Below, piece by piece: positions 842-61,525 of a DNA stretch of 64,000 bases. Source of the DNA: Pristiophorus japonicus. Lineage: Eukaryota. The stretch covers positions 19,592,001-19,656,000 of the forward strand of contig NC_092001.1 in the NCBI RefSeq assembly GCF_044704955.1. Reading direction: 5' to 3'. Both the position numbers and the translations under genes were made by a program. Numbering within the stretch: the stretch's first letter is position 1; every line of letters starts with the position of its first letter. Below the pieces are notes generated by a model. The model worked only from the letters and a program-made list of their open reading frames with translations. It was not told the origin of the DNA and did not search any database.

Positions 842-1147
842 AAGATTCCTCGTGCAACGATCCAACAATCACTCTTTCGCCGCCGTCACTCGAGCATGTC
901 TTAATGGAGGCGACAGTGACCTTAACCTGCATCGTGTCGAATGCTCCTTTTGGAGTCACCGTGTCCTGGGAGCGGAAAAAGGACATTTTGAAACCAGAGA
1001 ATCACGCTGAACAGGGAGAGGCCGATAGTGTGATCATCAAGTTAGACATCTCGACACAAAACTGGCTGAGTGGGATTGTGTTTGACTGCGTGGTGAGCCA
1101 TCGGGATATGCCGACTCCGATCAGAGGTTCCATCCACAAGGAAATGG
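842..1147 (+). CDS. IgNAR: Ig heavy-chain constant exon, penultimate C1-set domain (IgNAR C4; alternatively long-IgW C5)
   Basis: Acceptor TTCACAG ends 841, donor G|GTGAG at 1148, phase 1/1. Translation (E)[42 protein letters not shown]...[28 protein letters not shown] has the canonical Cys-Trp-Cys and resembles shark IgNAR C4 as I recall it. Confidence 0.9.
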
Positions 1148-1282
1148 GTGAGCGGCGTGATTGTTGGAACACGTGAGAGGCTGTGACTATTCCCGGTCCT
1201 TGTACATGGGCCAATTCGTTCTAATAAGTATTTTAATAGATTACTTTGATAATTCAAATGGTAATCCCACGAACTAAATACT

Positions 1283-1460
1283 CTGGGATATGGGATGATG
1301 CATTTAAGGGGAAGTTAGATAATTGCAGGAGGGAGAAAGCAATAGAAGGACATATTGCGTGGTTTCGATGGTGAGCTGGGAGTAGGCTCGTGTGGAGCAT
1401 AAAAGTTGGTATAAATCAGTTGGCCGAATGGCCTGGTTCCTAGCAGTGAATCCTATGTAA
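1283..1460 (+). mobile_element. Old CR1-type LINE 3' fragment in the intron between the two C exons
   Basis: GCATTTAAGGGGAAGTTAGATAA...GGCTCGTGTGGAGCATAAA...GGCCGAATGGCCTG resembles the CR1 ORF2 end and 3' UTR. Confidence 0.6.
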
Positions 1461-1663
1461 TTTTCCAGTACAACTCTTCAAGCTCCCAGAGAGAAGGATT
1501 TTATTCCATTTTGATCTGGGCTGAAAAACTGGACATGCCACAGAGGCGAAATTGTGAATCCTTAAAAATTCCGCGCAAACCACATATCTCGCGCATTTAA
1601 ACACCGGTGTCATTGTCTCTGGAAGTCTCCAGTTCATTGATGTTTATTGTAATTGATCTGCAG

Positions 1664-2055
1664 CTAAAGATCCGCGGGAACCGGTCGTGTCTGTCCTCCT
1701 GCCCTCGGCAGAAGAAATCTCCGCTCAGAGGTTGGTCAGCCTCACCTGCTTAGTGAGAGGTTTCTCCCCCCGAGAGATCTTCGTCAAGTGGACCGTCAAT
1801 GACAAGCCGGTGAATTCGGGCAACCACACGGACACCGAGGTGAAGACGGATAACAGCAGCAGCTCTTTCTTCACGTACAGCCTGTTATCCATTGCAGCCG
1901 AGGAGTGGGTCAGCGGTGCTTCTTACTCCTGTGTGGTAGGACATGAAGCCATCCCCTTGAAGACCATCATCAGAACAGTCAATAAATCCAGCGGTAAACC
2001 CAGTTTTGTGAACATTTCTTTTGGTCTGATGGTCACGGTCAATGCTTGTCAATGA
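1664..2055 (+). CDS. IgNAR: Ig heavy-chain last constant exon (IgNAR C5 / long-IgW C6) with secretory tailpiece
   Basis: Acceptor CTGCAG ends 1663 (phase 1). (A)[42 protein letters not shown]...[29 protein letters not shown] followed by tail [20 protein letters not shown] with N-glycan sequon and penultimate Cys; TGA 2053-2055. Confidence 0.92.
1991..1999 (+). promoter_or_regulatory. Internal 5' splice donor for the membrane isoform (AGCG|GTAAAC, cut after 1993)
   Basis: Canonical position at the G-K of SSGK; joining G1993 to AT4911-4912 gives an in-frame GAT (Asp) into TM1. Confidence 0.85.
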
Positions 2056-2083
2056 GAATCTCTCGATTGCATTTCAGTTCTTA

Positions 2084-2099
2084 AATAAAAACCAATAAA
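2084..2099 (+). terminator. Tandem poly(A) signals of the secreted mRNA
   Basis: AATAAA at 2084-2089 and 2094-2099, ~30-40 nt after the tailpiece stop. Confidence 0.8.
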
Positions 2100-2489
2100 T
2101 GCCTTTTCTTCCAATCGTGAGTTACACACACAGCCGCTCAATTAATTTTGTTTCTCATTTTTGCCAAAGGACGGGCTGTTAATGTGAAGCAGAGTTATTG
2201 TCGGAATGGGCACAAAGCTGGTACAGCCAGCGCTCCCAGCTCAGATACACCACAGTTTGGAGACAGAATGAAGCTCTTTCATGACAGGATTCCTCAAAGT
2301 AATTTCAGCAACTTTCTTCCCACTGGCAGAAACTGCAAAGTTCCATTTTCATACAAACAAATGCAGCACATTTAGATCTATGTGTCATTGTTTCTCGTGT
2401 TGTCCATCCCTTCAGATTTGGGGCCGGTTTTAATTGGCAGCATCGCACCCTCTTGGATCTGAAATGAGGGCGACACGGGAACAGGAACT

Positions 2490-3510
2490 GTACCTACCAC
2501 TGCCCCACCAGAGAGAGAGAACAAGTAAATTGTTAACCCCCTGTACCCCCCACTGCCCCACCAGAGGGGAAAGGTCAATTGTTAACCCCCTGCACCACCC
2601 ACTGACCTACCCGGTGGAGGGGAAAGGTCAATTGTTAAGCCACGGTACTCCCACGACCCCGCCAGAGAGAGGGGAAAGGTCAATTGTTAACACCCTGCAA
2701 CTCCCACTGCCCCAACAGAGCGAGGGGAAATGTCAATTGCTAACCCCCTGTACCCCCCACTGCCCCACCAGAGGGGAAAGGTCAATTGTAAACCCCCTGT
2801 ACCCTCCCTGCCCCACCAGGGGGAGGGGAAAGTTCAATCGTTAACCCACTGTACACCCACTACCGCACTAGAGAGAGGGGAAAGGTCAACTGTTAATTCA
2901 TTGTAAGACCACTGCCCCAACAGAGGGAGGGGAAAGGTCAATTGTTAATCTCCTGCACCTCCCACTGCCCCACCAGAGAGAAGGGAAAGGTCAATTGTCA
3001 ATCCCCTGTATCTCACACTGCCACACCAGAGAGAAGGGAAAGGTCAATTGTCAACCCCCTGGACCTCCCACTGCCCCGCCAGAGAGAGAGTGAAAAGGGC
3101 AATTGTTAACCATCTGTACCTCACACTGCCCCACCAGAGAGAGCAAAGGTCAATTGTTAATCCCCTGTAACTCACATTGCCCAACCAGAGGGAGGGAAAA
3201 GGGCAATTGTTAACCCCCTGTACCCCCCACCACTCCACCAGAGAGGAAATTCAATTGTTAACATCCTGTACCCGCCACTGCCCCACCAGAGATAGAGCAA
3301 AGGTGAATTGATAATCTCCTCTACCTCCCACTGCCCCACCAGGGGGAGGGGAGAGGTCAATTGTTAACCCCCTGTACATCCGCTGCCCCATCAGAGAGAG
3401 GGGAAAGGGTAATTGTTAACTCATTGTGTCTCCGATTCTCCAACACAGTGAGGGGAAACGGCAATTGTTAAGTCACTGTACCCCTCAATTCCCACCAGGG
3501 AGAGATGCCC
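2490..3510. repeat. ~52-53 bp minisatellite, ~19 units (GAGGGGAAAGGTCAATTGTTAACCCCCTGTACCCCCCACTGCCCCACCAGA-like)
   Basis: AAAGGTCA recurs at 2570, 2623, 2675, 2777, 2881, 2933, 2986, 3039, 3145. Confidence 0.9.
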
Positions 3511-3631
3511 ATCGTTGAATTGTTGCATCCGTCCTCTGACGTCACCTGGCGTCTCACGCTGAAAACATTTACACAGAGCGGGGAAGAATGCGTGCAAAAG
3601 TGTTTGCGTGTGTTTTTGTGAAAGTTCACGT

Positions 3632-4290
3632 TTACACATAAACACACAGAGACTTACACATAAACACGGACATAGGCACACTTACATAGGATATTACACA
3701 TGCCCAGAATATAATACACGCCGTCATTGTCTGAACCAGTTATTAGTACTCTCTGAAAGTTTGAATGACTGCAAAAATACACACACACACACTTACACTA
3801 AACAGACAAAATCACACGCATTAACACACATACACACACACGCACACACACATGCACTTACACTCGCATAAACACACACATGAACACAATCCCACTGACG
3901 CATAACACACATACACACATTTACATGCGAACACACACATTTACATACAAGCACGCACATGCTTACCCCTAAACATACAGAACACTTACACATAACCATA
4001 AACACACACATGAAAAACACACACATGAACGTACTTATACAAAACACACATATTTAAACATAAATACACAAAATTTCATATAAACACACAAAGACCGACA
4101 AGTAAACGTACACAAGCGTACGAAAAAAACACACACTTACACATAAATATAGATGCATAGAATCGCACATGAACACCCGCAAACTTGCATATCAACATTA
4201 CATTAACACACATCAACACACAAACACAGATTAAACCAGAACAAGTGATCGTCATGCACATATATGTAAACACTAAAGTGCACAAAATAC
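3632..4290. repeat. Degenerate (CA)n-rich low-complexity tract
   Basis: Continuous ACACAC/ACATAC runs on the + strand. Confidence 0.9.
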
Positions 4291-4910
4291 ATCAGGCTAT
4301 CGATGAATATAGAATTAAAATGCACTCTTGGAACAGCCTCCCAACCATTATATTAAATAATTCATTTCTGATGTCATAATATCTCACATTCCTCTATTCT
4401 GGTCCTACACACACACTGAATTAACGTTCTTAGTTGGAAACTGATGCAAGTTATTATGTTTAGAACATTGACCTTCACAAACTAATCAAGATTATAACTC
4501 ACATCTGACGTCTTACGCTGCCCGCTTGACAGTCTCCAAATAATTAGGTAGCTAAAACTATTGTTAAAATAATCGGTATCGCTCAGTAAACCTCCCTCGA
4601 TATTACATCATACTATTCCCGATCGGTAAATCCTATGAAATTTATACAAAATCAATGAGCTTGTGACATTTAAGGAAAACTGTCAAATTTTCCAACACGG
4701 ACTGTAGAAGGATCATAAAGGAAGAGCGACTGTGGAATTAGGAACACAGATAGATTGTTGGGAGTGATTAACTTAACACAGGGCATACATTGAACATCAA
4801 ATTAGAGAACAACCTAATAACTTAAGGAAATAAAATAGAATATATAACAATTATACGATATTTTGGATTAGCAAACGATCTGAATATTTTCCTCCTCTAC
4901 ATCTCCGCAG

Positions 4911-5038
4911 ATTCCTCAGATCATATCTGGGATGAAGACTACGAGGACCAGAGTGGCAACATCTGGACAACCGCTTCCACATTCATCATCCTGTTCTTCC
5001 TGAGCATGTTCTACAGTGCTGCCGTCACTCTGGTGAAG
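4911..5038 (+). CDS. IgNAR: Ig heavy-chain transmembrane exon TM1
   Basis: Pyrimidine tract and CCGCAG acceptor end 4910; (D)[42 protein letters not shown] has an acidic spacer and the conserved antigen-receptor TM motif; donor AAG|GTGAG at 5039. Not in the ORF track. Confidence 0.95.
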
Positions 5039-5176
5039 GTGAGAAGATTCAGTGCATTCGCTTCGAGCTGACTGAAGCGGTTTGCCAAATCTCTGAACGT
5101 TCCATTGATAAAAACCCTGAGATAAATGCCCCAAAGCACTAAATCCCTGCTTCAATCTTTTATCACTCTTTTACAG

Positions 5177-5185
5177 GTCAAGTGA
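5177..5185 (+). CDS. IgNAR: Ig TM2 exon coding part (VK-stop; cytoplasmic tail KVK)
   Basis: Acceptor CTCTTTTACAG ends 5176, then GTC AAG TGA. Confidence 0.92.
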   Translation, partial: VK

Positions 5186-5247
5186 TCGGCTGGATCTCGG
5201 CCGCCGTGGATTTTCCTCATTGGTTATTAACATCCCTGTGTCCTGAA

Positions 5248-5602
5248 AATAAACTAGGTTCTCTTGGTGATTCCCAGATTCAATTGACTTCAGTTTTTTC
5301 GTCTCTGTGTTTGAGAAGTGAGATATTCGTGGCTATAATGTAAATGTATCTCTGAGTTTCATAATTGTTTGAATATCTCATGTGTAACGAAGTCACTTTT
5401 CTCATTCATGATTCACAATTATTTCCTTCCCTTTATGTTGAACTGGTTCTCTCTCCCTTGTGTCTGTTGCAGTTGTACAGATAGCTGGCAGCTCAGGCCG
5501 TGTGTGTTCCAGGCTCAATGTGACGCTCATTTGTTATATTCAATTTGTGTTAACATTTTAAAAACGTCTCTGTAAATTGTTCTATGTGAAATTGTTAATA
5601 AA
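5248..5602 (+). terminator. Candidate poly(A) signals of the membrane mRNA
   Basis: AATAAA at 5248-5253 and 5597-5602; which one is used cannot be told from sequence. Confidence 0.6.
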
Positions 5603-6821: not shown

Positions 6822-7033
6822 ACTAGTGTATGGAGAAAGAGTCAGACTGAACACTGCGAGCTCAAAGTAAAGTGTGACATTCGTCTTTTATTGCAGGTCT
6901 CCAGACTGCCTCTCCAACCTGTGAAGCCTTCTGAACTATCTGTGCTCCCAAGGGATTATGGGATTCCTTGGCACTCCGGGGAATGCGACTACTGGTGGCT
7001 GCACAGAGTAAATACAAGCCCACATATATAACA
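6822..7033 (-). repeat. 3' LTR of the Gypsy element
   Basis: Ungapped alignment to 11053-11264, about 31 mismatches in 212 by manual count. Confidence 0.9.
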
Positions 7034-9464
7034 ACATTCCCCCCCAGAGTATAACTATTGACAATGGGAGTCGATCTGGGGCCCTTATTGTCCTGGTTGA
7101 TCATCTCGGTGTGAAAGCTGGTGTAGTTGAATCATTTGTTGGGCGCTCGCCGGGCTGCTGTGCAGCTGGCCTTGCTGGGCTGCCTGGTGTGTTGGGCCCT
7201 GCAGGGCTGCTGTGGATGATGGGTTCTGCTTCATGGTCAACGTGGTGTCATTTCCCACTGGTGTGTGTGTTGATGGATCAAAAAAGGTAGGGTCCAATGT
7301 GGGTTGCTCAGGGTAGTCCGTGAATCTGAGTTTGATTTGGTCCAAGTGTTTCTGGTGAATGAGTGCATTTGAAAGTTTGACCCGACACACCCTGCTCCGC
7401 CCTTTGGCCATGACAGTGCCGGGAAGCCACTTGGGACCTAGTCCATAATTTAATACCAATACAGGATCATTGAATTCAATCTCGCGTGACACATTTGTGC
7501 TGTCATGGCGCGCACTTTGTTGAAGCTGCCTGCTCTCCACCTGTTCATGTATTTCAGTGTGTATAACAAGAGCCTTATCTTAAGTGCTCTTTTCATGAGC
7601 AGTTCAGCGGGTGGGATCCCAGTGAGCGAGCAGGGTCTTGTGCGGTAGCTAAGCAGGACTCGGGAAAACGAGTCTGGGGTGAGCCTTCAGTTACCCTCCT
7701 CAAGACTTGCTTGATGGTTTGCATTGCTCTCTATGCCTGACCATTGGACGCTGGTTGGAAACGGCGCAGTTTTGACATGCTTGATCCGTTAAGGTTCATG
7801 AATTCTTTGAAATCATTATTGGGAAAACATGGCCCGTTGTCGTTCAACAGAACATCGGGTAAGCTGTGTGTGGAAAACATGTCCCGCAGGCTTTCAGTGG
7901 TGGCAGCAGACTTGCTAGCCGACATTATCTCACATTCAATCCACTTGGAGTACGCGTCTACAACCACAAGGAACATTTTACTAAGCATGGGCCGGCATAG
8001 TCGACGTATACCCTAGCCAAGACCTGAAACTTAGAGGCGCCTCCCAGGGTACAATGCTTAACTGCGAGCATGCGTTACATCTGTGAATGCAGGACTCTAA
8101 GTCCGCATCGATACCGGGCCACCATACGTGGGATCTGCCTATCACTTTCATCATTATGATGCCTGTGCGGGTAGTTGGAGGCAATTGATGAAGGAGCCTC
8201 TGCCCTTCTGTGAAACACTACTCGATTGCCTCACAGCAGGAAGCCTGCCTATATAGACATTTCATCTTTGCGCCACTGGAATGGCTTTATATCTTCCTGC
8301 ATTTCCACTGGGACACTGGATCAACTCTCGTGAAGCACACAGCTTTTGACTAAGGATATAATGGGTCCTGCTTGTCCTGTGATGGGTGATTGCTCACTCT
8401 CAAATGCTTCTATAACCTTGGCTAGATCTGCAGGCCGCCCCATTTCCACCCCCGTGGTGGGCAATGGCAGCCTACTGAGAGCATCGGCGCAGTTTTCTGT
8501 GCCTGGCCTGTAATGGATGGCATGGTTGGATGCGGACATCATGAACGGCCATCTCTGGATGCGGGCCGATGCATTTGTATTTATCCCTTTACTCTCGGAA
8601 AAGTGGGATATAAGTGGCTTATGTTCAGTTTCTAATTCGAATTTTAGCCCAAGCAGGTATTGATCCATTTTCTTTACCCCATAGACACACGCTAACACTT
8701 CTTTTCCAGTCATGCTGCAGACAGACACCTTAGACAGACTCCTGGATGCATAAACCATCGGTTGCAGTTTCCTGAAATCATTAGCTTGTTGCAAAACCCA
8801 TTCGCCCCCTTTTCAAGTAAGACATGGAGTGCTTCTAGCAGGGTGCTAAGACCCGGTAAGAAGTTACCAAAGAAATTCAAGAGTCCCAGGAATGACTGCA
8901 GCTCCGCCACGTTCTGTGGCCGAGGTGCGTTCTCGATTGCCTCCGTCTTCGCTTTAGTGGGTCTGATTTCGTCCGCCGCATTCCTCCTTCCAAAGAAGTC
9001 CACTTCAGGCGGCAGGAAAACGCACTTTTAGCGATTTAAGGTGAGCCCCATGCGGTTGAGTCGACTAAGAACCTCCTCCAGATTCTGCAGATGCTCGACT
9101 GTGTTCCGACCTGTGTACAAGTTGTCGTCCTGGAAGATTATGTTGTGCGGGACCGACTTCAGTAAACTTTGTATGTTTCTCTGGAATATCGTCGCCACCG
9201 ATTGGATTCCAAACGGGCATCTGTTATAAACAAAAACACTTTTGTGCCTGTTGATGCCAGTGAGGGCCTTCGATGATTTCTCCAGTTCCTACCTCATGTA
9301 TGCTGAGGTCAGATCCCGCTTCGTGAACGCCTTTCCTCGCGCCAGCGTTGCAAAGAGGTCGTCGGCTTTTGGAAGGTGGTATTGATCCTGCAGGGAGAAA
9401 CGATTGATAGTTACTTTGTAATCGCCACAAATTCTGACGTTGTCGTCTCCCTTGAGGACTACAA

Positions 9465-9538
9465 CTCTCTCGCCTTCTATCTCTCTCTCGCCTTCTCTCT
9501 CTCTCTCTCTCTCTGTTTCTTTCTCTCTCTCACTCTCT
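9465..9538. repeat. (CT)n microsatellite inside the Gypsy RT
   Basis: CTCTCT run; reads EREREREGERE in ORF 9289..9669. Confidence 0.9.
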
Positions 9539-11052
9539 TGATCGGTGAGAAGATGCCCTCGCTTTGTAGCTGGTCGAGCTCGATTTCTACCCTTTTCTCG
9601 CATCATGTTCAGTACTGCTTTCACCTTGTGACGGATGGTTCGTGCCCCCGGAATTAGGTGGATCTGCACTTTTGCTCCTTGGTATTTCCCGATGCCTGAT
9701 TCGAACAGCGAAGGAAATTTGTTTAAGACCTGTGCCCATGGAGATCCGTCAGCGGGCGATCGCGCTCAGATGTGGTCCCAGTTCCAGCGTATCTTTCCCA
9801 GCCAGCTCCTGCCGAGCAGCATGGGACCATCGCCCGGTAACAAGCAGAGTGGTAGCTTGTGCACCATTCCATCGTAGCAGACCTTTATGGTAGCACTGCC
9901 TATTACAGGAATCAGTTATTTCGTGTAAGTTCTTAGTTTCGTGCGAACTGGAGTTTTGACTGGGCTTGAGGCCACGTTGCACCACAAAATTTCGAAAGTC
10001 TTTTCGCCCATGATGGACTGGCTCACCCATGTGTCCAGCTCCATTGACACCGGGAGTCCATTTAGTTCAACAAGTTCAACATTCAGCATTATCGGTGGAC
10101 AATTCGTGGTGAATGTTTGCACTGCATGTATCTCTGCCTCATCGGTCTGAGGCTCTGGTTCATCGTGATCCTCTATGGATATGTTCTCCTCTGCAACATG
10201 GTGGTTTGCTGGTTGAAGAAGTTTTGCAGCTTGCCTGCACACTCGTTGGCGATGTCCCATTGTTGCACAGCCCTTGTAAACGTACTCTTTGAATCGGCAT
10301 GAATGGAATCGATGACTGCCTGTTCAGCGCCAACAAGGTGTTAATGGCCTTGCCTTCATCATCCTTGATGATCGTCTTTGAGTCATCTGCGGACGTGCAG
10401 CTGCAGGTATGTTTGACCTGCCCTGTACATTATGATTCAAAAACAACATCAATTTGTTCACAGTACTTGTAGCAGCACTTTTGTGTTGAGAGATTTGCTT
10501 CGTATTGTCACTGATGGCAATATACGCCTGGGTTATCGCTGTGGCCTTACTCAAGGTTGGGGTCTCTACAGTCAAAAGTTTGCGAAGTATAGTCTCGTGG
10601 CCAATGTAAATTATGTAAAAGTCTCCGAGCATATGCTCCAAATGTCCTTCAAATTCGCAATGTCCAGCAAGGCTTCTTAGCTCGGCGAAATAACACGCCA
10701 TTTCCTCGCCTTCAGACCTTTTGTCGTTATAGAGCCGGTACCTCGCCATCAGAATGCTTTCCTTCGCGTTCAAATGCTCTCGGACCAGTGTGCACAAATC
10801 GTCGTACGATTTCTCTGTGGGTTTCGCTGGAGAAAGCAGATTCTTGATGAGGCCATACGTTGGTGCCCCACAGACGGTGAGGAGGATCGCCCTTCATTTG
10901 GCAGTGCTCTCTTCCCCATTCAGCTCGTTGGCCACGATGTATTGGTCGACTCGTTCCACAAATGTTTCCCAAACTTCTCCCTCCGAGAATTTCTCCAGGA
11001 TGCCCACTGTTCTCTGCATCTTTGGGTTCGCTGTTTGTATCTTGTTGCCAGT

Positions 11053-11264
11053 TGTTGTGTATGGAGAAAGCGTCAGACTGAACACTGTGAGCTCAAAGTA
11101 AAGTGTGACCTTTGTCTTTTATTGGAGGTCTCCAGAGTGCCTATCCAACCTGTGAAGCTTCCTTAAATACGTGTGACCCCAAGGGATTATGGGATCCCTT
11201 GGGACTCCAGGAGATGAGCCCTCTGGTGGCTGTACAGAGTAAATACAAGCGCACCTATTTAACA
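11053..11264 (-). repeat. 5' LTR of the Gypsy element
   Basis: TGTT...AACA termini, adjacent to the PBS. Confidence 0.9.
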
Positions 11265-11339
11265 CTCTCGATATTCAGTAAGACAAGGAATTAGCTAGAA
11301 ACTTACGACCATAAATCTCTTTGTTCCCATGCTTTATTG

Positions 11340-11570
11340 AAAGTTTTACCATTTATTGTACATTTCCTCCCTTTACTTTCCTCCCAAAATCTATCGCAGC
11401 ACATTTCTCTGCATTAAATTTAATTTCACATCTACCAGCCCCAATTACTAACCTATGTATTGACAATGAAAGCACTTAAACTCAACTTCACAGTTGGCCA
11501 TGGGACCTTTCTGGCGTTCCATAGAGCTTTCAATCACGTGCCCCATATACCCAAGCCCAGATCATTTCTC
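11340..11570 (-). mobile_element. Highly decayed CR1 RT fragment
   Basis: TTCCTCCCAAAAT...CACATTTCTCTGCATTAAATT resembles the rc of the RT segment seen at 17980-18030 and 19950-20000. Confidence 0.45.
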
Positions 11571-11689
11571 TGTGATGGGCGGCACTGTGAGGAGTGGCGC
11601 TGTGAGGGGCGGCCCTGTGAGAGAATAGCCTAACTCCCAGGACTTAGCTTAAACCTGAAGCAAATACTAGTTCCCAGACTGTAACAATA

Positions 11690-12370
11690 AACCCTAAAGT
11701 AATCCTAAACATGAACAGAGAAACTGATACCAAAAAAGAAGTAACCAGAACATAAAGAATCATATTCTTAATTAAAATAATTTAAAATAATGAAAATAAC
11801 TGACCCGAACTCCAGACCCTATCCCTCATAAACCTATAGGTAAAATTTGTAAACACAGACCCCAGCCACAAAACCAAACCCTAACCCAGGACCATAAAAG
11901 TAACTCGAGCCCCAAGAAATATTTTTTCCAGACTCCAGCCCCAAAACCTAGTTCGGCCCCAACTCTCTAAGAACGAATCCAAAGCAGAAGTTTAAAATCA
12001 AGCCCCCAGCCGCAAATCCTAACCCTAAAACTAAATCCTAACCCTCAGAAACCTAAACCCAAAACTTGTAAACACAGACTCCTACCCCAAAATCAAACCC
12101 TAACCCAAGACCCGAACCTCCCTAAAATTTAACACTAACATAAAACATAACAGTGCAGAACACAACCCAAAAACCCCAACCCTAACTCTCGATCCTAAAC
12201 CCTTGAAACCGAACCCTAACCTAATGCTGTACGGCCCAAACCACTGCTTCCAAACTCAGTCCTAACCCCAGACGCTAGATCCCCAAGACTGAACCCGAAC
12301 CTAAAATATATTAATGCAGACCCTAACCCCAAGTCATATCTCTAAATGCCCCTAATTCTACCCCCTGCCC
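11690..12370. repeat. Degenerate interstitial telomere-like tract (CCCTAA variants)
   Basis: Multiple CCCTAACCC / CCTAACCCTAA / CCTAAACCC motifs, e.g. ~11879, 12018, 12097, 12180, 12214, 12320. Confidence 0.65.
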
Positions 12371-13083
12371 TTATCTCCTCCTCATAGAAACAGGAACTAA
12401 ACAGAAATGTGTGTAAAACAGAGTCCCAAGCCGCCCACCCCCGAGTAGACCAGGAATCAGAAGGGCCCACAAAAATCGGGTACAATAGATGACACAGCGA
12501 ACCAAACCAGGAATAAAACAAAAGACTGGACTGAACGAAGAGAGTTATAACAAAAACAGAACAGAACTAACCCGCAAACTATAACAAAACCAAAAAAAGT
12601 ACAAAACAAAAAAAATTTACAAATGTATTAAAAATGAGTTACAAAAATCAAAAAAACATTTTTACAGGAAGTAAGGGGTAAATGGGATAGAAAAAACTTA
12701 AAAGAGAGAAACAAACTGTCAGAACTAAAAACATTAGACCCCCCACGAAAGATCCCAACCCTGAACCACGGGCATTCAAACAGGTGACGCATCACACACT
12801 ACACATAAACATGAACAAAAAGGGGGCGGAACTCCACATTTGTACCTAACAATCAGTGAGGACCACTGATCACACAGACTCAACACAAAAACAAGAACCA
12901 TAACTCTAGCCATAGCTCACGATTAACACCTTATCACTGAGAGGGAGGAGGTTTAAATAATTTCTTTCCCACCTCCCAAACCTTCTCGTTCAGACTGACC
13001 TAAAGTCTCCATAACCTCTCACTGTAAGTTTCTCGATCTGATACCCTCTGACCCTTGAGCCCCACGATCCGTTTGCTTTTCCT

Positions 13084-13123
13084 GGTCTCTGATGAAGCTC
13101 CAGTAAGGGCGAAACGTTAGATT
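13084..13123 (+). ncRNA. Minimal type I hammerhead ribozyme (Penelope-like-element type)
   Basis: GGTCT-CTGATGA-A-GCTC-CAGTAA-GGGC-GAA-ACGT-T-AGATT: full core CUGANGA/GAAA, stem II GCUC/GGGC, palindromic loopless stem III ACGU, GUU triplet, stem I GGUCU/AGAUU. Confidence 0.75.
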
Positions 13124-13455
13124 CTCGACTATAATTAGCCATCAAGACGATGGATCATGAAGTGAGGGTAAACCCCACACCCCCCACCAAAAAAACCACT
13201 TTACTTTTATCCCCTAACCCTTGGGAGACTTCTCCCTCATTCTCTCCACACTTCCAACCCACCGTGTCGGTCTTTTTCTTGAAAAAGAAAGACTCTCTCT
13301 CATTTCCCTTCTTAACAAAAGATGTTCTCCATACCAGCTCTAATTGTACTGCTATGTAGAACTCGTGGGATAAGTGGTTCTCTGCTCCTCGTCCCCCGCT
13401 ACCCAACAGAAAACTATTGCTATCGAACCACTACATACACACACACCTCGAGGGT

Positions 13456-13602
13456 CACCTCGAGTCTCGTCGCCGAGAGCATGCAAAAGTCTAGCGTAGG
13501 CAGCGCAAGGAGCTCGCGGCAAACCTGTCCCACCCTCCCTTACACTCACCGACTGAATGAACCATCCGTGACAGGGACTGTGATTCTCGTATTGGACTGT
13601 TC
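13456..13602 (+). mobile_element. RTE-clade LINE 3' fragment
   Basis: Reverse complement of 13670-13816; encodes the HLESRRREHA...RDCDSRIGLF-like C-terminus. Confidence 0.75.
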
Positions 13603-13603
13603 C

Positions 13604-13830
13604 TCATAGGCAGTCGCTCGAAATCGAGCAAGATTTGCATTCATTCGTAAAATGAGTCCTTAGGTGACTGAACAGTCCAATACGAGAACCACAGTCCTTG
13701 TCACAGGTGGAACAGACAGTGGTTTAGGGAAAGAGTGGGTGGGACTGGTTTGCCACACGCTCCTTCCGCTGCCTGCGTTTGATTTCAGCATGCTCTCGGC
13801 GACGAAACTCGAGGTGCTCAGCGCCCCCCG
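13604..13830 (-). mobile_element. RTE-clade LINE 3' end
   Basis: Minus strand reads GAEHLEFRRREHAEIKRRQRKER..NQSHP...CSTCDKDCGSRIGLFSHLRTH (C-terminal C2H2), then a short 3' UTR ending CCTATGA. Confidence 0.8.
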
Positions 13831-15440
13831 ACACATACAGGATAACCGTGACACGCCGCACAAAAAACCTACCGGATCCCTCCCATACAAGCTTAACCGA
13901 GACCCCCTCCTCCACACACACCCATAACCGAACCGTGACACCCCCACACACAAACCCTAACCGAGTCCCTCCCATACAACCTATTCGAGACCTCTCCCCA
14001 CACAAACACACACAACACAAGCGTGACCACCCTTCCCACTCACAACCTAACCGAGACCCGCACACACAACATAACCGTGACCCCCACCACACACACAACC
14101 TAACCGAGATCTCCCCACACACAATCTAACCGTGACCCCCAGCACACACACGACCTAACCGAGACCCGCCAAACACATAACGTAACCGAGAACCCCCAAA
14201 CACACAACCTAACCGAGACGACCACCACACAACTGAATAGAGACTCCGCCACACATAACCTAACCGAGACGCCTCCCCCACAGGCAACCCAACTGAGCCT
14301 CCCGCAACACATAACTTTACCCAGACCACCCCCACACACAACCTAACCGAGATCCCCTGACACACACAACTTAACCGAGACCCCCCACACAAAAACTAAC
14401 CGAGACGCCCCCAAACAAAAACGAACCGAGACTCCCCCCCACACACACAACATTAGCGTGACCCCCTACACGCAACCTAACCGAGACACCCCCACACACA
14501 CAAACTAACCGTGAACCCCGCGCTCAAACTAACCGAGACCCCCCAACATAAACATCCTAACCGAGACACCCCACACACACACAACCTAACCGAGACACCC
14601 CCACACACAACCGAAACGAGACCCCCCTCCCCAACACACACACCCTAACCGAGACCCCCGCGCATACACAATCTAACCGAGCCCCCCGCACAGACAACCA
14701 AACCGTGACCCCCACCCCTGCATAGACAACCAAACCGTGACCCCCACTCCCCACACACAACCTAACCGTGACCCCTGCCCACACACACAACCTAACCGAG
14801 ACCGCCCCACACACCCAACGGAACCGAACCCCCCCCCCACACACACACCACCTAACCGAGACCTCCACACACACACAACCTAACCCAGACCCCGCCCACA
14901 AACAAACTAATTGAGATCTTCCACACACACAACCTAACCGAGACTCCCCCACACAACCTAACGGAGAGCCCCCCCACACACAACCTTACCGTGACCCCCC
15001 CACACACAACCTAACCGTGACCCCCCCACACACAACCTAACCTTGACCCCCCCAACCACAACCTAACCGTGACCCACCCACACACAGAACCGAACCGTGA
15101 AACCCCCCCACACATAGCCTAACCGAGACCCCACCCCCGCTACACACACAACCTAACTGATAACCCCCCCACCTTCACAACCTAACCTGAGCTGCCCCAC
15201 ACATAACCTAACCGAGACACCCCCACACAACCTAACCGCGAACCCCCGCACACACACACAACCTAACTAAGACGCACCCACACACACAAACTAACCGAGA
15301 CCCCCCACAAAACCTAAGCGAGACCCCCACACACACAACCTAAACGAGACAACCCCACACAATCTAACCGATACCCCCCACACACAAGGTATCCCAGAGC
15401 ACCCCACTCCCGCACACAACCTATCCGAAATCCCACAGCA
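13831..15440. repeat. ~24-28 bp minisatellite (CACACACAACCTAACCGAGACCCCC), ~60 units
   Basis: CCTAACCG(A/T)GACCCC core repeated throughout. Confidence 0.92.
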
Positions 15441-15532
15441 AGGTCCATTTGCACATAATCAAAAATACATTTTCTTTAAAAAAAAATCAAATCGGTGATC
15501 TCAGCAAAACAAAAGGCCCCAACAAACGGAGG

Positions 15533-15860
15533 TCATCATCGTCATAGACATCCCCTCGGAATCAAGGAAGACTGGCTTCCACACTAAAAATGAGTTCTCA
15601 GGTGACTGAACAGTCCAATACGAGAATTACAGTCCCTGTCACAGGTGGGACAGACAGTCGTTGAGGGAAGGGGTGGGGAGTCTGGTTTGCTGCACGCTCC
15701 TTCCACTGCCTGCACATGATTACTGCATGCTCTCTGCGATGAGTCCAGAGATGCTCAGCACCCTCCCGGATGCACTTCCACTTATGGCGGACTTACGCCA
15801 AGGACTCCCAGGTGTCAGTGGGGATGTTGCATTTTATCAGGGAGGCTTTGAGTGTTTCCC
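15533..15860 (-). mobile_element. RTE-clade LINE 3' end with (GAT)n tail
   Basis: TCATCATCGTCATAG tail; homologous to 13604-13830 and extends further 5' (LKASLIKCNIPTDTWESLA). Confidence 0.8.
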
Positions 15861-16899
15861 AGGATCCTTCAACGGCTTTAACAATAACAATAACTCCCCA
15901 ATTAACATCCATAACTTAGAACACTGGCAATAATATTATTAATAAATCCAAAAAAATAATATTGACTTACATACAATTAATAAGTTCCCTAACTTACAGA
16001 CACCAATTGGATACACAGTAAGGAACTAACAACCCACCTAAAAACAATTTTAAACGACAAACACACACTTACCCCCACCCCAAAAATAATAACCCTGCCG
16101 AAACCAACACCATCATAAGAGGGACTGCAAATAAATACAATCCAATCTCCATCAACTTAATCTCTTGGCACAATTCAATTTACCATCAATTTAATTATTA
16201 ATAAAACACTTCCATAAAAGTTCCAAAGGAACATTACCCCACTGTCCCAAACAACAAAGGCCCCAGCCTTCAAAATAGAATAGTACACCACTATCCAGAA
16301 TAAAATTAGAGCAAGACGTTAGTGTCCAGAACGACACACGCAGCCACTGCAGCTCTGATACAGCAAATAATGTACAGGAGAAAACCCAAACAACTAAAAA
16401 TGGGAAGCTGGAACAGAACGTATATTACCCATTTTAACCCCAACCCAGATCTAATCTAAAAATAGAGCATGACATCAGGGTCCAGAACGGCACAGCGGTC
16501 CAATCACAGTAAATTGGGGACATCAGAGAATCCAATTTAGCAAACAGAAGCAACTAGAAGCTAAAGGATCATACTATTAATCAAATTAATTGAAAATAAT
16601 GAAAATAACGAATGAGAACAAATCAAGCGACAAGAGCAAGAAAGGCTGAGTCACAAACTCCGGAAAGCATGAGCCAATCAAAAGTGGCAGTAAGGAAAGC
16701 AAAATTCCAAAGGGGCATTATCCCACAGCCTGAAAACTAACACCAACTTCAAAACACACTAACAGATTTGTCAAGTTCAATTTCCTCTTCATCAATCCGT
16801 GTTCATTCTGTCCAATCCAGTTATTACTTGCGAAGTGCCCTGTTACCTGCTTAATAATCGATTCGAGCATTTTAGCTACTCCTGATTTCATGGCTATCG

Positions 16900-17176
16900 A
16901 TACTGCATGGCTTACATACAGAATAAATCGAACTCCATCCTATCCCAAGCACTACCAGGGTTGATACAGAGTAGATCTCAGTCTACAATATCCAAAACAC
17001 TCCCAGGGCAGTGCAGCACGGGTTAGATACAGAGACAAGCTCCCTCCATATAGTCCGATCAAACAATCCCCGGGCAGGTGCAGCACAGGTGAGACGCAGA
17101 TTATATATTCCTGTACCCTGCCTCAAATACTCCCAGGGCACATACAGCACGGGTCAAATATAGAGCAATCCCCACC
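16900..17176. repeat. Second array of the ~67 bp repeat (~4 units)
   Basis: AAACACTCCCAGGGCAG.GCAGCACGGGTTAGATACAGAG as at 5985-6572. Confidence 0.85.
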
Positions 17177-56800: not shown

Positions 56801-58552
56801 CCACCCTACACTCACCTGACAATCAGAATCTCACATATTGTCAGAGAATGACAGAGGCAGTATCTATCCAAACTCACCTGTCACATCGTGTCAGAGAATG
56901 ACAGAGGCAGTATCTATCCTACACTCACATGTCACATAGTGTCAGAGAATGACAGAGGCAGTATCTAGCCAACACTCACCTGTCACATATTGTAAGAGAA
57001 TGAGCGAGGCTGTATCTATCCCACACTCACCTGACAAACAGTGTCAGAGAAACACAGAGGCAGTATTTATCCAACACTCACCTGACACATAGTGACAGAG
57101 AATGACAGAGGCAGTATCTATCCAACACTCACCTGGCACATCATGTCTGAGAATGAGAGAGGCAGTATCTATCCAACACTCACCTGTCACATAGTGTCAG
57201 AGAATGAGAGAGACAGTATCTATCCAACACTCACCTGTCACATAGTATCAGAGAATGAGAGGCAGTATCTATCCTACACTCAACTGTCACATAATGTCAG
57301 AGAATGAGAGAGGAAGTATCTATCCAACACTCATCTGTCACATAGTTTCAGAGAATGAGAGAGGCAGTATCTATCCAACACTCACCTGTCACATAATGTC
57401 AGAGAATGAGAGAGGCAGTATCTATCCAACACTCACCTGTCACATAGTGTCAGAGAATGAGAGAGGCAGTATCTATCCTACACTCACCTGTCACATAGTG
57501 TCAGAGAATGAGAGAGGCAGTATCTATCCAACACTCACCTGTCACATTGTATCAGAGAATTGCAGAGGCAGTACGTATCCAACACTCATCTGTCACATAG
57601 TGTCAGAGAATGAGAGAGGCAGTATCTATCCTACACTCACCTCTCACATTGTGGCAGAAAATGACAGTGGCAATATCTATCCAGCACTCACCTGTGACAT
57701 ATTATCAGAGATTCAAAGAGGCAGTATCTATCCTACACTCACATGTCACATCGTTTCCGACAATGACAGAGGCAGTATCTAACCAACACTCACCTGGCAT
57801 ATAGTATCAGAGAAGGAGATAGTCAGTACCTGTCCTACACTCACCTGTCACATAGCATCTGAGAATGAGAGAGGCAGTACATATCCGACACTCACATGTC
57901 ACATAATGTCAGAGAATGACAGAGACAGTAACTATCCAACACTCACCTGTCACAAAATATCAGAAAATGACAGAGGCAGTATCTATCCAAAACGCACCTG
58001 TCACACAGTGTCAGAGAATGGCAGAGGCAGTATCTATCCAACACTTACCTGTCACATAGTATCAGAGAATAACAGAGGCAGTATCTGTTCAAAACTCACC
58101 TGTCACATTGTGTTAGAGAAGGTGAGAGCCAGTATCTATCCAACACTCATCTGTCACATCGTGTCAGAGAATGGCAGAGGCAGTACCTATCCAACACTTA
58201 CCTGTCACAAAGTGGCAGAGAATGACAGAGGCAGTATCTGTCCAACACACAACTGTCACATAATCACAGAGAATGACAAGAGGCAGTATCTATCCATAAC
58301 TCACCTGTCACATAGTGTCATAGAATGAGAGAGGCAGTATCTAGCCAACACTCACCTGTCACTTCGTGTCAGAGATTGAGAGAGGCAGTATCTATCCATC
58401 AGTCACCTGTCACACAGTATCAGCGAATGAGAGAGGCAGTATCTATCCAACACACACCTCTCCCATAGTGTCAGAGAATGAGAGGCATTATCTATCCAAA
58501 ACTCACCTGTCACATAGTGTCAGGGAATGACAGTGGCAGTATCTATTCAACT
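56801..58552. repeat. 51-bp satellite, ~34 units (ACACTCACCTGTCACATAGTGTCAGAGAATGAGAGAGGCAGTATCTATCCA)
   Basis: 17-aa periodicity (LTCHIVSENERGSIYPT) in ORF 57255..57782. Confidence 0.95.
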
Positions 58553-60587: not shown

Positions 60588-61373
60588 GTTGTTCGATTGG
60601 GCAGGATTTGCAGACGGGAAACTCGAACCAAACATCATGTCAAGATCTGTCAGAATCACTCGATTCATCAGGACATGAATATCATCGGTCTTTGCATGTG
60701 GAAGGAGAAATGTTTGTTTGTTCTGTCTGTGGAAACAGATTTCAAATATCAATGTGACTTGAAAAGCACCGAGACACATGTACCCGAGTGAGTGTTCCTG
60801 TGTACTGACTGTGGAAAAAGTTTTAACCAGTTGCACAGCCTGAAAAAGCATCGCAGCATTGACAACGGGGAGAAACCGTACACGTGTTGCGTGTGTGGTG
60901 GAGGCTTCAACTGAATATACCACCTGGAGAGACACAAGGACGCAAACACCATGGGTAAACCATGGAAATGTGGGGACTGTGGGAAGGGATTCAATTACCC
61001 ATCTGAGCTGGAAATTCATCGTCGCAGTCACACTGGGGAGAGGCCGTTCACCTGCTCTCAGTGTGGGAAGGGATTCACTCAGTCATCCACTCTGCTGACA
61101 CACCAGCGAGTTCACACTGGGGAGAGGCCATTCACCTGCTCTCAGTGTGGGAAGGGATTCACTCAGTCATCCACCCTGCTGACACACCAGCGAGTTCACA
61201 CTGGAGAGAGGCCATTCACCTGCACTGAGTGTAGGAAGGGATTCACTTGATCATCAACCCTGCTGGAACACCAGCAAGTTCACACTGGAGAGAGGCCATT
61301 CAACTGCTCTACGTGTGGGAAGGGATTCAATTGGTCATCCACCTTGCTGACATACCAGCGAGTTCACAAGTGA
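60588..61373 (+). pseudogene. C2H2 (Krueppel-type) zinc-finger terminal exon, disrupted: ~3 degenerate fingers, 3 intact fingers, finger with in-frame stop, finger with His>Tyr
   Basis: Acceptor CTTCTTTTCCAG ends 60587; relic CSVCG, CTDCG and CCVCG fingers with stops/frameshifts; TGERPF linkers; TGA 61248-61250 mid-finger; frame continues to TGA 61371-61373. Confidence 0.75.
60951..61250 (+). CDS. Residual ORF, 99-aa C2H2 zinc-finger protein (3 complete fingers)
   Basis: ACCATGG Kozak context; [61 protein letters not shown]... Confidence 0.6.
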
Positions 61374-61525
61374 CTGCAGGATTTGGATTCTGCTGTTGTC
61401 CATGACTGAATCGTGTCCATTCTTACAGTTGAGCTTTCGTTCTGCTGATATTGATTCCCCCTCTAACTGTGCTGGGGTTTAATATTCTGGATATTTGATC
61501 AATTAATCAACGGGAAAATGCTCAG

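What the first reader, a model, noticed from the sequence alone, without database searches (positions are those of the whole stretch)
13084..13123. Minimal, probably dimer-dependent hammerhead ribozyme 3' of the Ig gene, same strand
Seen: all catalytic core nucleotides (CUGAUGA 13089-13095, GAAA 13111-13114, GUU 13116-13118), a 4-bp stem II with 6-nt loop, a 5-bp stem I (two G-U) and a loopless palindromic stem III (ACGU). Known: this architecture marks type I hammerheads of Penelope-like elements and retrozymes, which cleave as dimers through the palindrome. Inference: a self-cleaving RNA (cut after 13118) preserved in otherwise decayed DNA. It could mark an undescribed mobile RNA family, or cleave Ig read-through transcripts ~7.5 kb past the membrane poly(A) signals. 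I saw no second copy in the window.
Basis: partly seen in the sequence, partly recalled or inferred. Interest (0 to 1): 0.75.

Follow-up and report, generated by a model that had tools for sequence, protein, structure and literature searches.

The report
Penelope-type minimal hammerhead in shark repeat
The motif is a real single copy of the small "dimer-type" hammerhead RNA already described from Penelope-like jumping genes; it lies inside a multi-copy repeat of at least 1.1 kb downstream of an antibody gene of a likely shark or ray, and is most likely an inert leftover of an insertion rather than a regulator of that gene.

Summary
Observation confirmed: 13084-13123 (+) holds the whole hammerhead core, stem II (4 bp), stem I (5 bp) and a loopless ACGU stem III. 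It is the only descriptor hit in the window; 1 of 150 simulated windows gave one. It fits the published consensus for minimal hammerheads of Penelope-like elements (PLEs), including the extra base after A9. It is not preserved in decayed DNA: contigs of one related DNA sample tile all of 12300-13429, mostly at 80-95% identity. Every contig covering 13099 and 13122 reads C, turning two G-U pairs into G-C, so this copy is the weakened one; it differs from the family at 2 of 40 motif bases versus at least 29 of about 1,130 overall. No partner copy lies in the window, and an antisense LTR retrotransposon separates it from the Ig poly(A) signal. The parent element was not found: no PLE ORF trace within 1.8 kb upstream (insensitive test). 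Verdict: new member of a known kind, likely silent here; cleavage and expression untested.

The parts
13084..13123 (+). Minimal type I hammerhead motif (PLE type)
   Evidence: fits the consensus line of PMC4209133 Fig. S3
13084..13088 (+). Stem I, 5' arm
13089..13096 (+). Core C3-A9 plus the extra base between positions 9 and 10.1
   Evidence: feature named in PMC4209133
13097..13110 (+). Stem II (4 bp, G10.1-C11.1) with 6-nt loop; contigs read C at 13099 (10 of 10 in X2, 8 of 8 in X3)
13111..13118 (+). G12-A15.1, palindromic ACGU stem III (13114-13117), H17 = U13118; predicted cut 3' of 13118
   Evidence: numbering from established hammerhead chemistry
13119..13123 (+). Stem I, 3' arm; contigs read C at 13122 (3 of 3 in X2, 3 of 3 in X3)
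13070..13083 (+). Pyrimidine-rich stretch 5' of the motif, as in the published consensus ('U rich')
12300..13429 (+). Multi-copy, apparently non-coding repeat that contains the motif. Lower bound: 7 and 5 contigs run over an end of the laid stretch; a retroelement piece begins at about 13440
   Evidence: 134 and 108 contigs laid in X2 and X3, one sample; no Pfam hit in six frames
11800..12350 (+). Degenerate 75-80 nt repeats, each with a CCTAAC/CCCTAA hexamer; whether they belong to the same element is not shown
13456..13816 (.). Inverted pair of RTE-like LINE 3' ends (147-nt arms, 82% complementary) that bounds the repeat on the right; the RTE label is recalled, not from a call
6826..11264 (-). 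Broken LTR retrotransposon (RT, RNase H, integrase; LTRs 6826-7033 and 11057-11264, 86.5% alike) between the Ig gene and the motif
844..5602 (+). 3' part of an IgM-like heavy-chain gene: two C domains, secretory tail, membrane exons (4913-5038, 5177-5185), AATAAA at 5248 and 5597

Best explanation
The motif is one copy of a Penelope-type minimal hammerhead inside a multi-copy repeat of at least 1.1 kb, likely the terminal repeat (pLTR) region of a truncated or non-autonomous Penelope-like retroelement, and this lone copy is likely silent. Shown: the anatomy, the repeat family, two stem positions where this copy has G-U and all covering contigs have G-C, and the absence of a partner in 64 kb. 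Inferred from the described class: in a tandem transcript of the parent element two motifs pair through the ACGU palindromes and swap stem I arms, which builds two active cores that cut 3' of U17, probably helped by the element's own protein. Inferred for this copy: with no partner, weaker stems and a competing hairpin that ties up the core, it would cut little or not at all, and it does nothing for the Ig gene.
For: All four features that Cervera and De la Pena list for min-HHRs beyond their descriptor: family structure, extra base between 9 and 10.1, G10.1-C11.1, palindromic 15.2-16.2; matches the Fig. S3 consensus, and the Xenopus (2) family there has a similar loop II, CAGUAAA. Repeat: contigs overlap across 12300-13429 in both X2 and X3 (one sample); identity bands 99+/95-99/90-95/under 90 are 8/19/48/59 of 134 and 7/23/38/40 of 108. 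Stem-improving letters at 13099 and 13122 in every covering contig. A second subfamily appears as loose ends behind 13120 in 5 (X2) and 3 (X3) contigs, 22 of 30 letters alike (my count by eye), with 3' arm AGGCC; one X5 contig has the matching 5' arm GGCCU, which points to a U-A to C-G swap in stem I. Folding: stems I+II -5.8 kcal/mol in this copy against -10.3 for an inactive hairpin; with the two family letters -11.2 against -13.2; dimer form -9.7 against -20.5. Most min-HHRs occur as single motifs of probably truncated PLEs, and a single S. mansoni motif did not cut (PMC4209133); the Anolis PAc motif cut only with protein (PMC11167929).
Against: No PLE protein trace: 0 Pfam families in six frames of 11265-13460, and only weak zinc-finger hits from the LINE piece in 15400-17000; a 41-aa ORF start at 13322 found no relative. 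About 790 nt upstream and 310 nt downstream of the motif are family sequence without an ORF, longer than I would expect (recalled) for common shark PLE tails. The two arms of the stem I swap come from different contigs of different samples, and the X5 contig has a broken core (C3 and A6 changed). One X2 contig (depth 123 of 382) has an A put in behind 13115 and one X3 loose end lacks G16.2, so the palindrome is not kept in all copies. Only 40 of 157 difference rows were shown; none of the 40 lies in the core, but about 0.5 would be expected, so this shows no selection. No contig carries the window's own letter at 13099, so X2/X3 is another individual or species. Nearest-neighbour energies ignore the tertiary core.
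Confidence: 0.7

Rival explanations
1. The repeat is multi-copy because it rides inside duplicated Ig gene clusters or another segmental duplication; the motif came from one old PLE insertion and has not moved since.
For: Cartilaginous fish carry many duplicated IgM clusters (recalled). Summed depth over the motif (about 630-660) against the shallowest listed contigs (4-15) suggests tens of copies, not thousands; the tool warns that this is no copy number.
Against: A subfamily about 27% diverged with an apparently compensated stem I, and loose ends that run on into other sequence at 13286-13373, fit an element better than a passive segment.
Confidence: 0.1
2. The repeat is a monomer of a non-LTR retrozyme with an unusually long unit, which elsewhere forms tandem arrays and circular RNAs.
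For: Non-coding, multi-copy, type I motif; non-LTR retrozymes were reported in the one chondrichthyan genome sampled and leave solo monomers (bioRxiv 10.64898/2026.07.22.740005).
Against: One motif only, no tandem unit with a motif; no contig shows a head-to-tail joint in 1,161 nt (table 5 empty; contigs are short).
Confidence: 0.1
3. The repeat belongs to an endonuclease-less, telomere-attaching PLE (Athena, Coprina or Terminon type), not reported from vertebrates, or to its non-autonomous partner.
For: C-strand telomere hexamers on the same strand as the motif: 9 CCCTAA in 11640-12400 against a simulated mean of 2.7 (maximum 10 in 2000 runs); a 26-nt array with CCTAACC at about 13830-15400; no GIY-YIG trace upstream; satellite-rich window.
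Against: The defining short telomeric run immediately 3' of the motif (PMC6431247) is absent; there is no tandem run of two telomere units anywhere in the window; the hexamers lie in a degenerate local repeat, so they are not independent, and one search did not cover most of them. No RT found.
Confidence: 0.05
4. The host has kept the motif to cut read-through transcripts of the Ig gene, as a fail-safe terminator.
For: Same strand as the gene, 7.5 kb past the last AATAAA of the membrane form; core intact.
Against: No partner or substrate half-site (the strict half-site pattern matches only the motif itself); stems weaker than in the family, and no better kept than the flanks; antisense LTR element and further AATAAA in between; no tertiary loop I-II contact evident.
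Confidence: 0.03
5. Chance match.
For: No Rfam hit at threshold; the minimum-energy fold of 13060-13150 is not the hammerhead and is not unusually stable (z -0.46).
Against: 1 of 150 simulated windows gives a hit; family letters improve both stems; undemanded class features are present.
Confidence: 0.02

Closest known systems
Minimal hammerheads (min-HHR) of metazoan Penelope-like elements (Cervera and De la Pena 2014, PMC4209133)
   Same: Type I, no loop III, palindromic 15.2-16.2, extra base after A9, G10.1-C11.1, 4-5 bp helix I, U-rich 5' flank, occurrence as a single motif in a repeat family; loop II close to the Xenopus (2) family.
   Different: No PLE ORF found next to it; stem II is at the short end (4 bp); the family seems to have tens of copies; no shark example in the supplement file searched (0 hits for shark or Callorhinchus; file 1 could not be searched).
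Non-LTR retrozymes of animals (PMC7229834; bioRxiv 10.64898/2026.07.22.740005)
   Same: Non-coding repeat with a type I motif that needs a partner; proposed to derive from PLE pLTRs.
   Different: No tandem array here; the conserved stretch (1.13 kb or more) is longer than the reported units.
PAc Poseidon element of Anolis (PMC11167929)
   Same: pLTR hammerhead of the same small type; gives the protein-assisted model used here.
   Different: There the ORF starts inside stem II; here the ATG in the core (13092) meets a stop after four codons and no downstream ORF has relatives.
Athena/Coprina/Terminon telomeric PLEs (PMC6431247, PMC8557442)
   Same: Hammerhead plus C-strand telomere-like hexamers on one strand.
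   Different: The hexamers are scattered 0.7-1.4 kb upstream, not a short run directly 3' of the motif; no RT found.

Membership tests
PLE-type minimal hammerhead (min-HHR) | Complete core CUGANGA, GAAA, NUH | tested here: met
PLE-type minimal hammerhead (min-HHR) | No loop III, palindromic 15.2-16.2 | tested here: met
   ACGU 13114-13117
PLE-type minimal hammerhead (min-HHR) | One base between 9 and 10.1; G10.1-C11.1 | tested here: met
   A13096; G13097-C13110
PLE-type minimal hammerhead (min-HHR) | Family with compensatory stem changes | tested here: inconclusive
   Two one-sided G-U/G-C changes in all covering contigs; a two-sided change in stem I is inferred from separate contigs only; some contigs break the core or the palindrome
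PLE-type minimal hammerhead (min-HHR) | Cleavage as a dimer or with protein | not testable with these tools
   Folding energies only
Penelope-like element (EN+), pLTR | Motif in a terminal repeat next to an RT + GIY-YIG ORF | tested here: inconclusive
   No trace in 11265-13460 or 15400-17000 by Pfam, none by protein search; Pfam is weak for decayed PLE pieces (recalled); other copies' flanks could not be read, no genome held
Penelope-like element (EN+), pLTR | Tandem or partial-tandem copies with two pLTRs | tested here: not met
   For this locus: one motif, no second pLTR-like copy in the window; truncated solo copies are described as the usual case
Non-LTR retrozyme | Tandem units under about 1 kb, each with a motif | tested here: not met
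   no joint
Non-LTR retrozyme | Expressed as linear and circular monomers | not testable with these tools
   No RNA holder listed
Telomeric EN-less PLE (Athena, Coprina, Terminon) | Reverse-complement telomeric run immediately 3' of the motif | tested here: not met
   loose ends behind 13120 hold none either
Telomeric EN-less PLE (Athena, Coprina, Terminon) | RT ORF without endonuclease; position at chromosome ends | not testable with these tools
   No genome held
Rfam hammerhead families (clan CL00010) | Score at or above the gathering threshold | tested here: not met
   (HH9 13.5 bits against 52)

The most novel reading that the evidence does not exclude
The motif marks a long non-coding hammerhead retro-RNA of cartilaginous fish (1.1 kb or more, perhaps 1.8 kb with the CCCTAA-bearing repeats) that is not the tail of an ordinary endonuclease-bearing Penelope element: either the first vertebrate member or partner of the telomere-attaching, endonuclease-less PLEs, or a retrozyme with a unit beyond the known size range that makes large circular RNAs.
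Probability: 0.08. Interest if true: 0.6.

Novelty: new member of a known kind. Interest (0 to 1): 0.2.

Why it matters
As found, it adds one more family to a class described in 2014 and has little bearing on Ig biology. What remains open is the carrier: a 1.1-kb or longer non-coding repeat whose parent ORF I could not find. If the parent lacked an endonuclease and sat at chromosome ends, it would extend telomere-attaching retroelements to vertebrates, from which one 2026 preprint, citing earlier work, says they were not found. If the motif cut Ig read-through RNA it would be a new way to end transcription of an immune gene, but nothing here points to that.

Tried and rejected
Whole-genome search: no genome held, so no copy count and no flanks of other copies. 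Rfam: nothing at threshold; the miRNA-like matches at 13568-13705 are the inverted LINE ends. Collection scans: a loose core pattern gave 21 stretches in viral contigs, none with this family's arms or stem II on reading all 21; tighter patterns gave 0 in metagenome contigs and 0 in prokaryote genomes. Sequencing runs: no RNA holder listed, which says nothing on expression; X5 and X6 are of unknown kind, cover 14 and 4 of 30 bins, almost all under 90% identity, and not the motif bin, so they were not used for expression. Parent ORF: Pfam on 12 frames and a protein search with a 41-aa ORF start (weak test) found nothing. Other pieces of the element in the window: nhmmer with 9 pieces found only a 90-nt AT-rich module shared by 11716-11802 and 16524-16611 and a local repeat. 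Partner or substrate half-sites: none beyond the motif with the strict pattern; a looser 8-letter pattern gave 1 other on + and 3 on -, not followed. A possible intron ending at stem I, as in D. virilis (a donor-like GGTAAG in family letters missing from this copy near 13000, a pyrimidine tract before 13084), could not be tested: no acceptor AG in this copy. Earlier notes on this genome or look-alike stretches: none. Paper searches for a shark description of such a family listed none; Lunse et al. (PMC5785218) is not held.

Full report
Observation. On the + strand 13084-13123 reads as stem I 5' arm (13084-13088), core CUGAUGA (13089-13095), one extra A (13096), stem II 13097-13100/13107-13110 with a 6-nt loop, GAAA (13111-13114), C15.2-G16.2, U16.1, U17 (13118) and stem I 3' arm (13119-13123). 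Stem I has two G-U pairs and stem II one. The bare core pattern is near chance in this window (5 matches, 2.2 expected), but the full descriptor hits only here and in 1 of 150 Markov simulations of the window. Rfam does not recognise it: no match at gathering score, and Hammerhead_HH9 at 13.5 bits, E 7.6. The minimum-energy fold of 13060-13150 is not the hammerhead (z -0.46).

Setting. The gene upstream is an IgM-like heavy chain: its last C domain and tail match mostly IgM constant regions among the best PDB hits, and the tail and repeats look like those of a cartilaginous fish (recalled; I did not determine the species). AATAAA hexamers follow the membrane exons at 5248 and 5597, so the motif lies 7.5 kb on. 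In between lie a 67-nt minisatellite, a broken LTR retrotransposon on the opposite strand with RT, RNase H and integrase hits and LTRs 86.5% alike, and further AATAAA at 11686 and 12512. Right of the motif an inverted pair of LINE 3' ends (13456-13816) and a 26-nt array follow.

The motif sits in a repeat family. No genome is held. Four DNA runs of one sample hold about 0.39 of the words of 12700-13500; I laid two of them (X2, X3) and two of the three further runs of unknown kind (X5, X6) on 12300-13460 at 80% likeness. X2 laid 134 contigs and X3 108, in all 30 bins, with overlapping pieces from 12300 to 13429 and most under 95% alike. Summed depth is about 130-800 outside an A-rich spike at 12573-12650 (lower in X3 at the right end), against 4-15 for the shallowest listed contigs; the tool warns this is no copy number, so 'tens of copies' is my rough reading. 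No contig has the window's letter at 13099, so this sample is another individual or species. At 13099 all 10 (X2) and 8 (X3) contigs read C, and at 13122 all 3 and 3 read C; both turn a G-U pair of the window copy into G-C. Of the 40 difference rows shown (117 hidden), 29 have the other letter in 85% or more of X2's depth, so this copy differs from the family at 29 or more of about 1,130 bases, and at 2 of the 40 motif bases. The motif is not better kept than its flanks. Loose ends behind 13120 in 5 and 3 contigs show a second subfamily (22 of 30 letters alike, counted by eye) with 3' arm AGGCC, and one X5 contig has the 5' arm GGCCU: a likely U-A to C-G swap in stem I, though the arms are on different contigs from different samples. 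Against a uniformly kept motif: that X5 contig has C3 and A6 changed, one X2 contig (depth 123 of 382) has an A put in behind 13115, and one X3 loose end lacks G16.2. No joint that would show a tandem unit was listed.

Mechanism. With no loop between C15.2 and G16.2, stem III cannot close in one molecule; two motifs can pair through ACGU and exchange stem I arms, which gives two cores that cut 3' of U17 (established for this class: PMC4209133; PMC6765202). In Cervera and De la Pena's tests a single S. mansoni motif did not cut and dimers cut weakly; the Anolis PAc motif cut only with the element's protein, and no RNA ends were seen at its cut site (PMC11167929); of nine Xenopus retrozyme dimers one cut (bioRxiv 10.64898/2026.07.22.740005). 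For this copy, stems I+II are worth -5.8 kcal/mol against -10.3 for a hairpin that pairs the core with the 3' side; with the two family letters -11.2 against -13.2; the dimer form goes from -9.7 to -20.5, and is in both cases weaker than the best two-strand fold (-22.6, -28.4) (tertiary contacts are not modelled). The window holds no second motif and no matching substrate half. I conclude that the motif served the parent element's RNA and that this lone, weakened copy is likely silent. Cleavage and expression were not tested; no RNA holder was listed.

What the carrier is. The motif meets the sequence criteria of the PLE min-HHR class. Membership of the carrier in the PLEs is inferred, not shown: six-frame Pfam scans of 11265-13460 and 15400-17000 gave no RT or GIY-YIG hit, a 41-aa ORF start gave no relative, and about 790 nt upstream and 310 nt downstream of the motif are family sequence without an ORF. 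Solo motifs away from ORFs are described as the usual state. A classical retrozyme needs tandem units, which are absent here. The upstream 75-80 nt repeats carry 9 CCCTAA hexamers (simulated mean 2.7) on the motif's strand, which recalls telomeric PLEs, but the defining run directly behind the motif (PMC6431247) is missing and no two telomere units stand in tandem anywhere in the window.

What I read. PMC4209133: main text parts 1-2 of 4, supplementary file 2 parts 1-2 of 3 (file 1 could not be searched). bioRxiv 10.64898/2026.07.22.740005: parts 1-3 of 5; its supplements, which list families per species, are closed and may bear on whether this family is known. PMC11167929: parts 1-2 of 4. PMC8557442, PMC6431247, PMC6765202, PMC7229834, PMC6155905: passages only. 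Lunse et al. (PMC5785218): title in a reference list only. Searches listed no paper on this shark family; Repbase and Dfam could not be searched. Seven earlier AI notes from other genomes reach the same reading for similar motifs; they are not evidence, and several differ from this case in reporting very high copy numbers or an adjacent PLE ORF.

Verdict. Real motif, known kind, probably an uncatalogued or little-known family, likely inert at this locus. Interest 0.2. The most novel reading left open, a long non-coding or telomere-type hammerhead element in a vertebrate, has probability about 0.08.

Noticed in passing
window 11800-12350: Degenerate 75-80 nt repeats each with a CCTAAC/CCCTAA hexamer on the + strand (9 CCCTAA in 11640-12400, simulated mean 2.7); link to the hammerhead repeat not shown.
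   Followed up: partly
window 13825-15430: C/A-rich 26-nt tandem array (about 49 copies by TRF) with CCTAACC, lying between two LINE 3'-end fragments.
   Followed up: no
window 11716-11802 and 16524-16611: A shared 90-nt AT-rich module (nhmmer E about 1e-5); 15860-16760 has the same A-rich make-up as 11640-13080 and may be another part of the same element.
   Followed up: partly
window 13000-13001: Contigs carry about 16-18 letters here, with a splice-donor-like GGTAAG in some, that the window copy lacks; may relate to the pLTR intron known from Penelope.
   Followed up: no
window 6826-11264 (-): Broken LTR retrotransposon, antisense and 1.2 kb downstream of the Ig membrane poly(A) signal; LTRs 86.5% alike.
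   Followed up: partly
window 13456-13816: Two LINE 3' ends head to head form a 147-bp inverted repeat that scores against several miRNA models below threshold.
   Followed up: yes
window 23886-55981: 32-kb array of a 41-nt satellite (792 copies), followed by a 51-nt array at 56831-58551.
   Followed up: no
window 60700-61400: C2H2 zinc-finger repeats (84-nt period) with apparent in-frame stops; likely a pseudogene.
   Followed up: no
L002, L004, L018 (viral contigs), match at 1501: Unrelated viral contigs hold loopless-stem-III hammerhead-like motifs with short UAA/UUA stem I arms.
   Followed up: no
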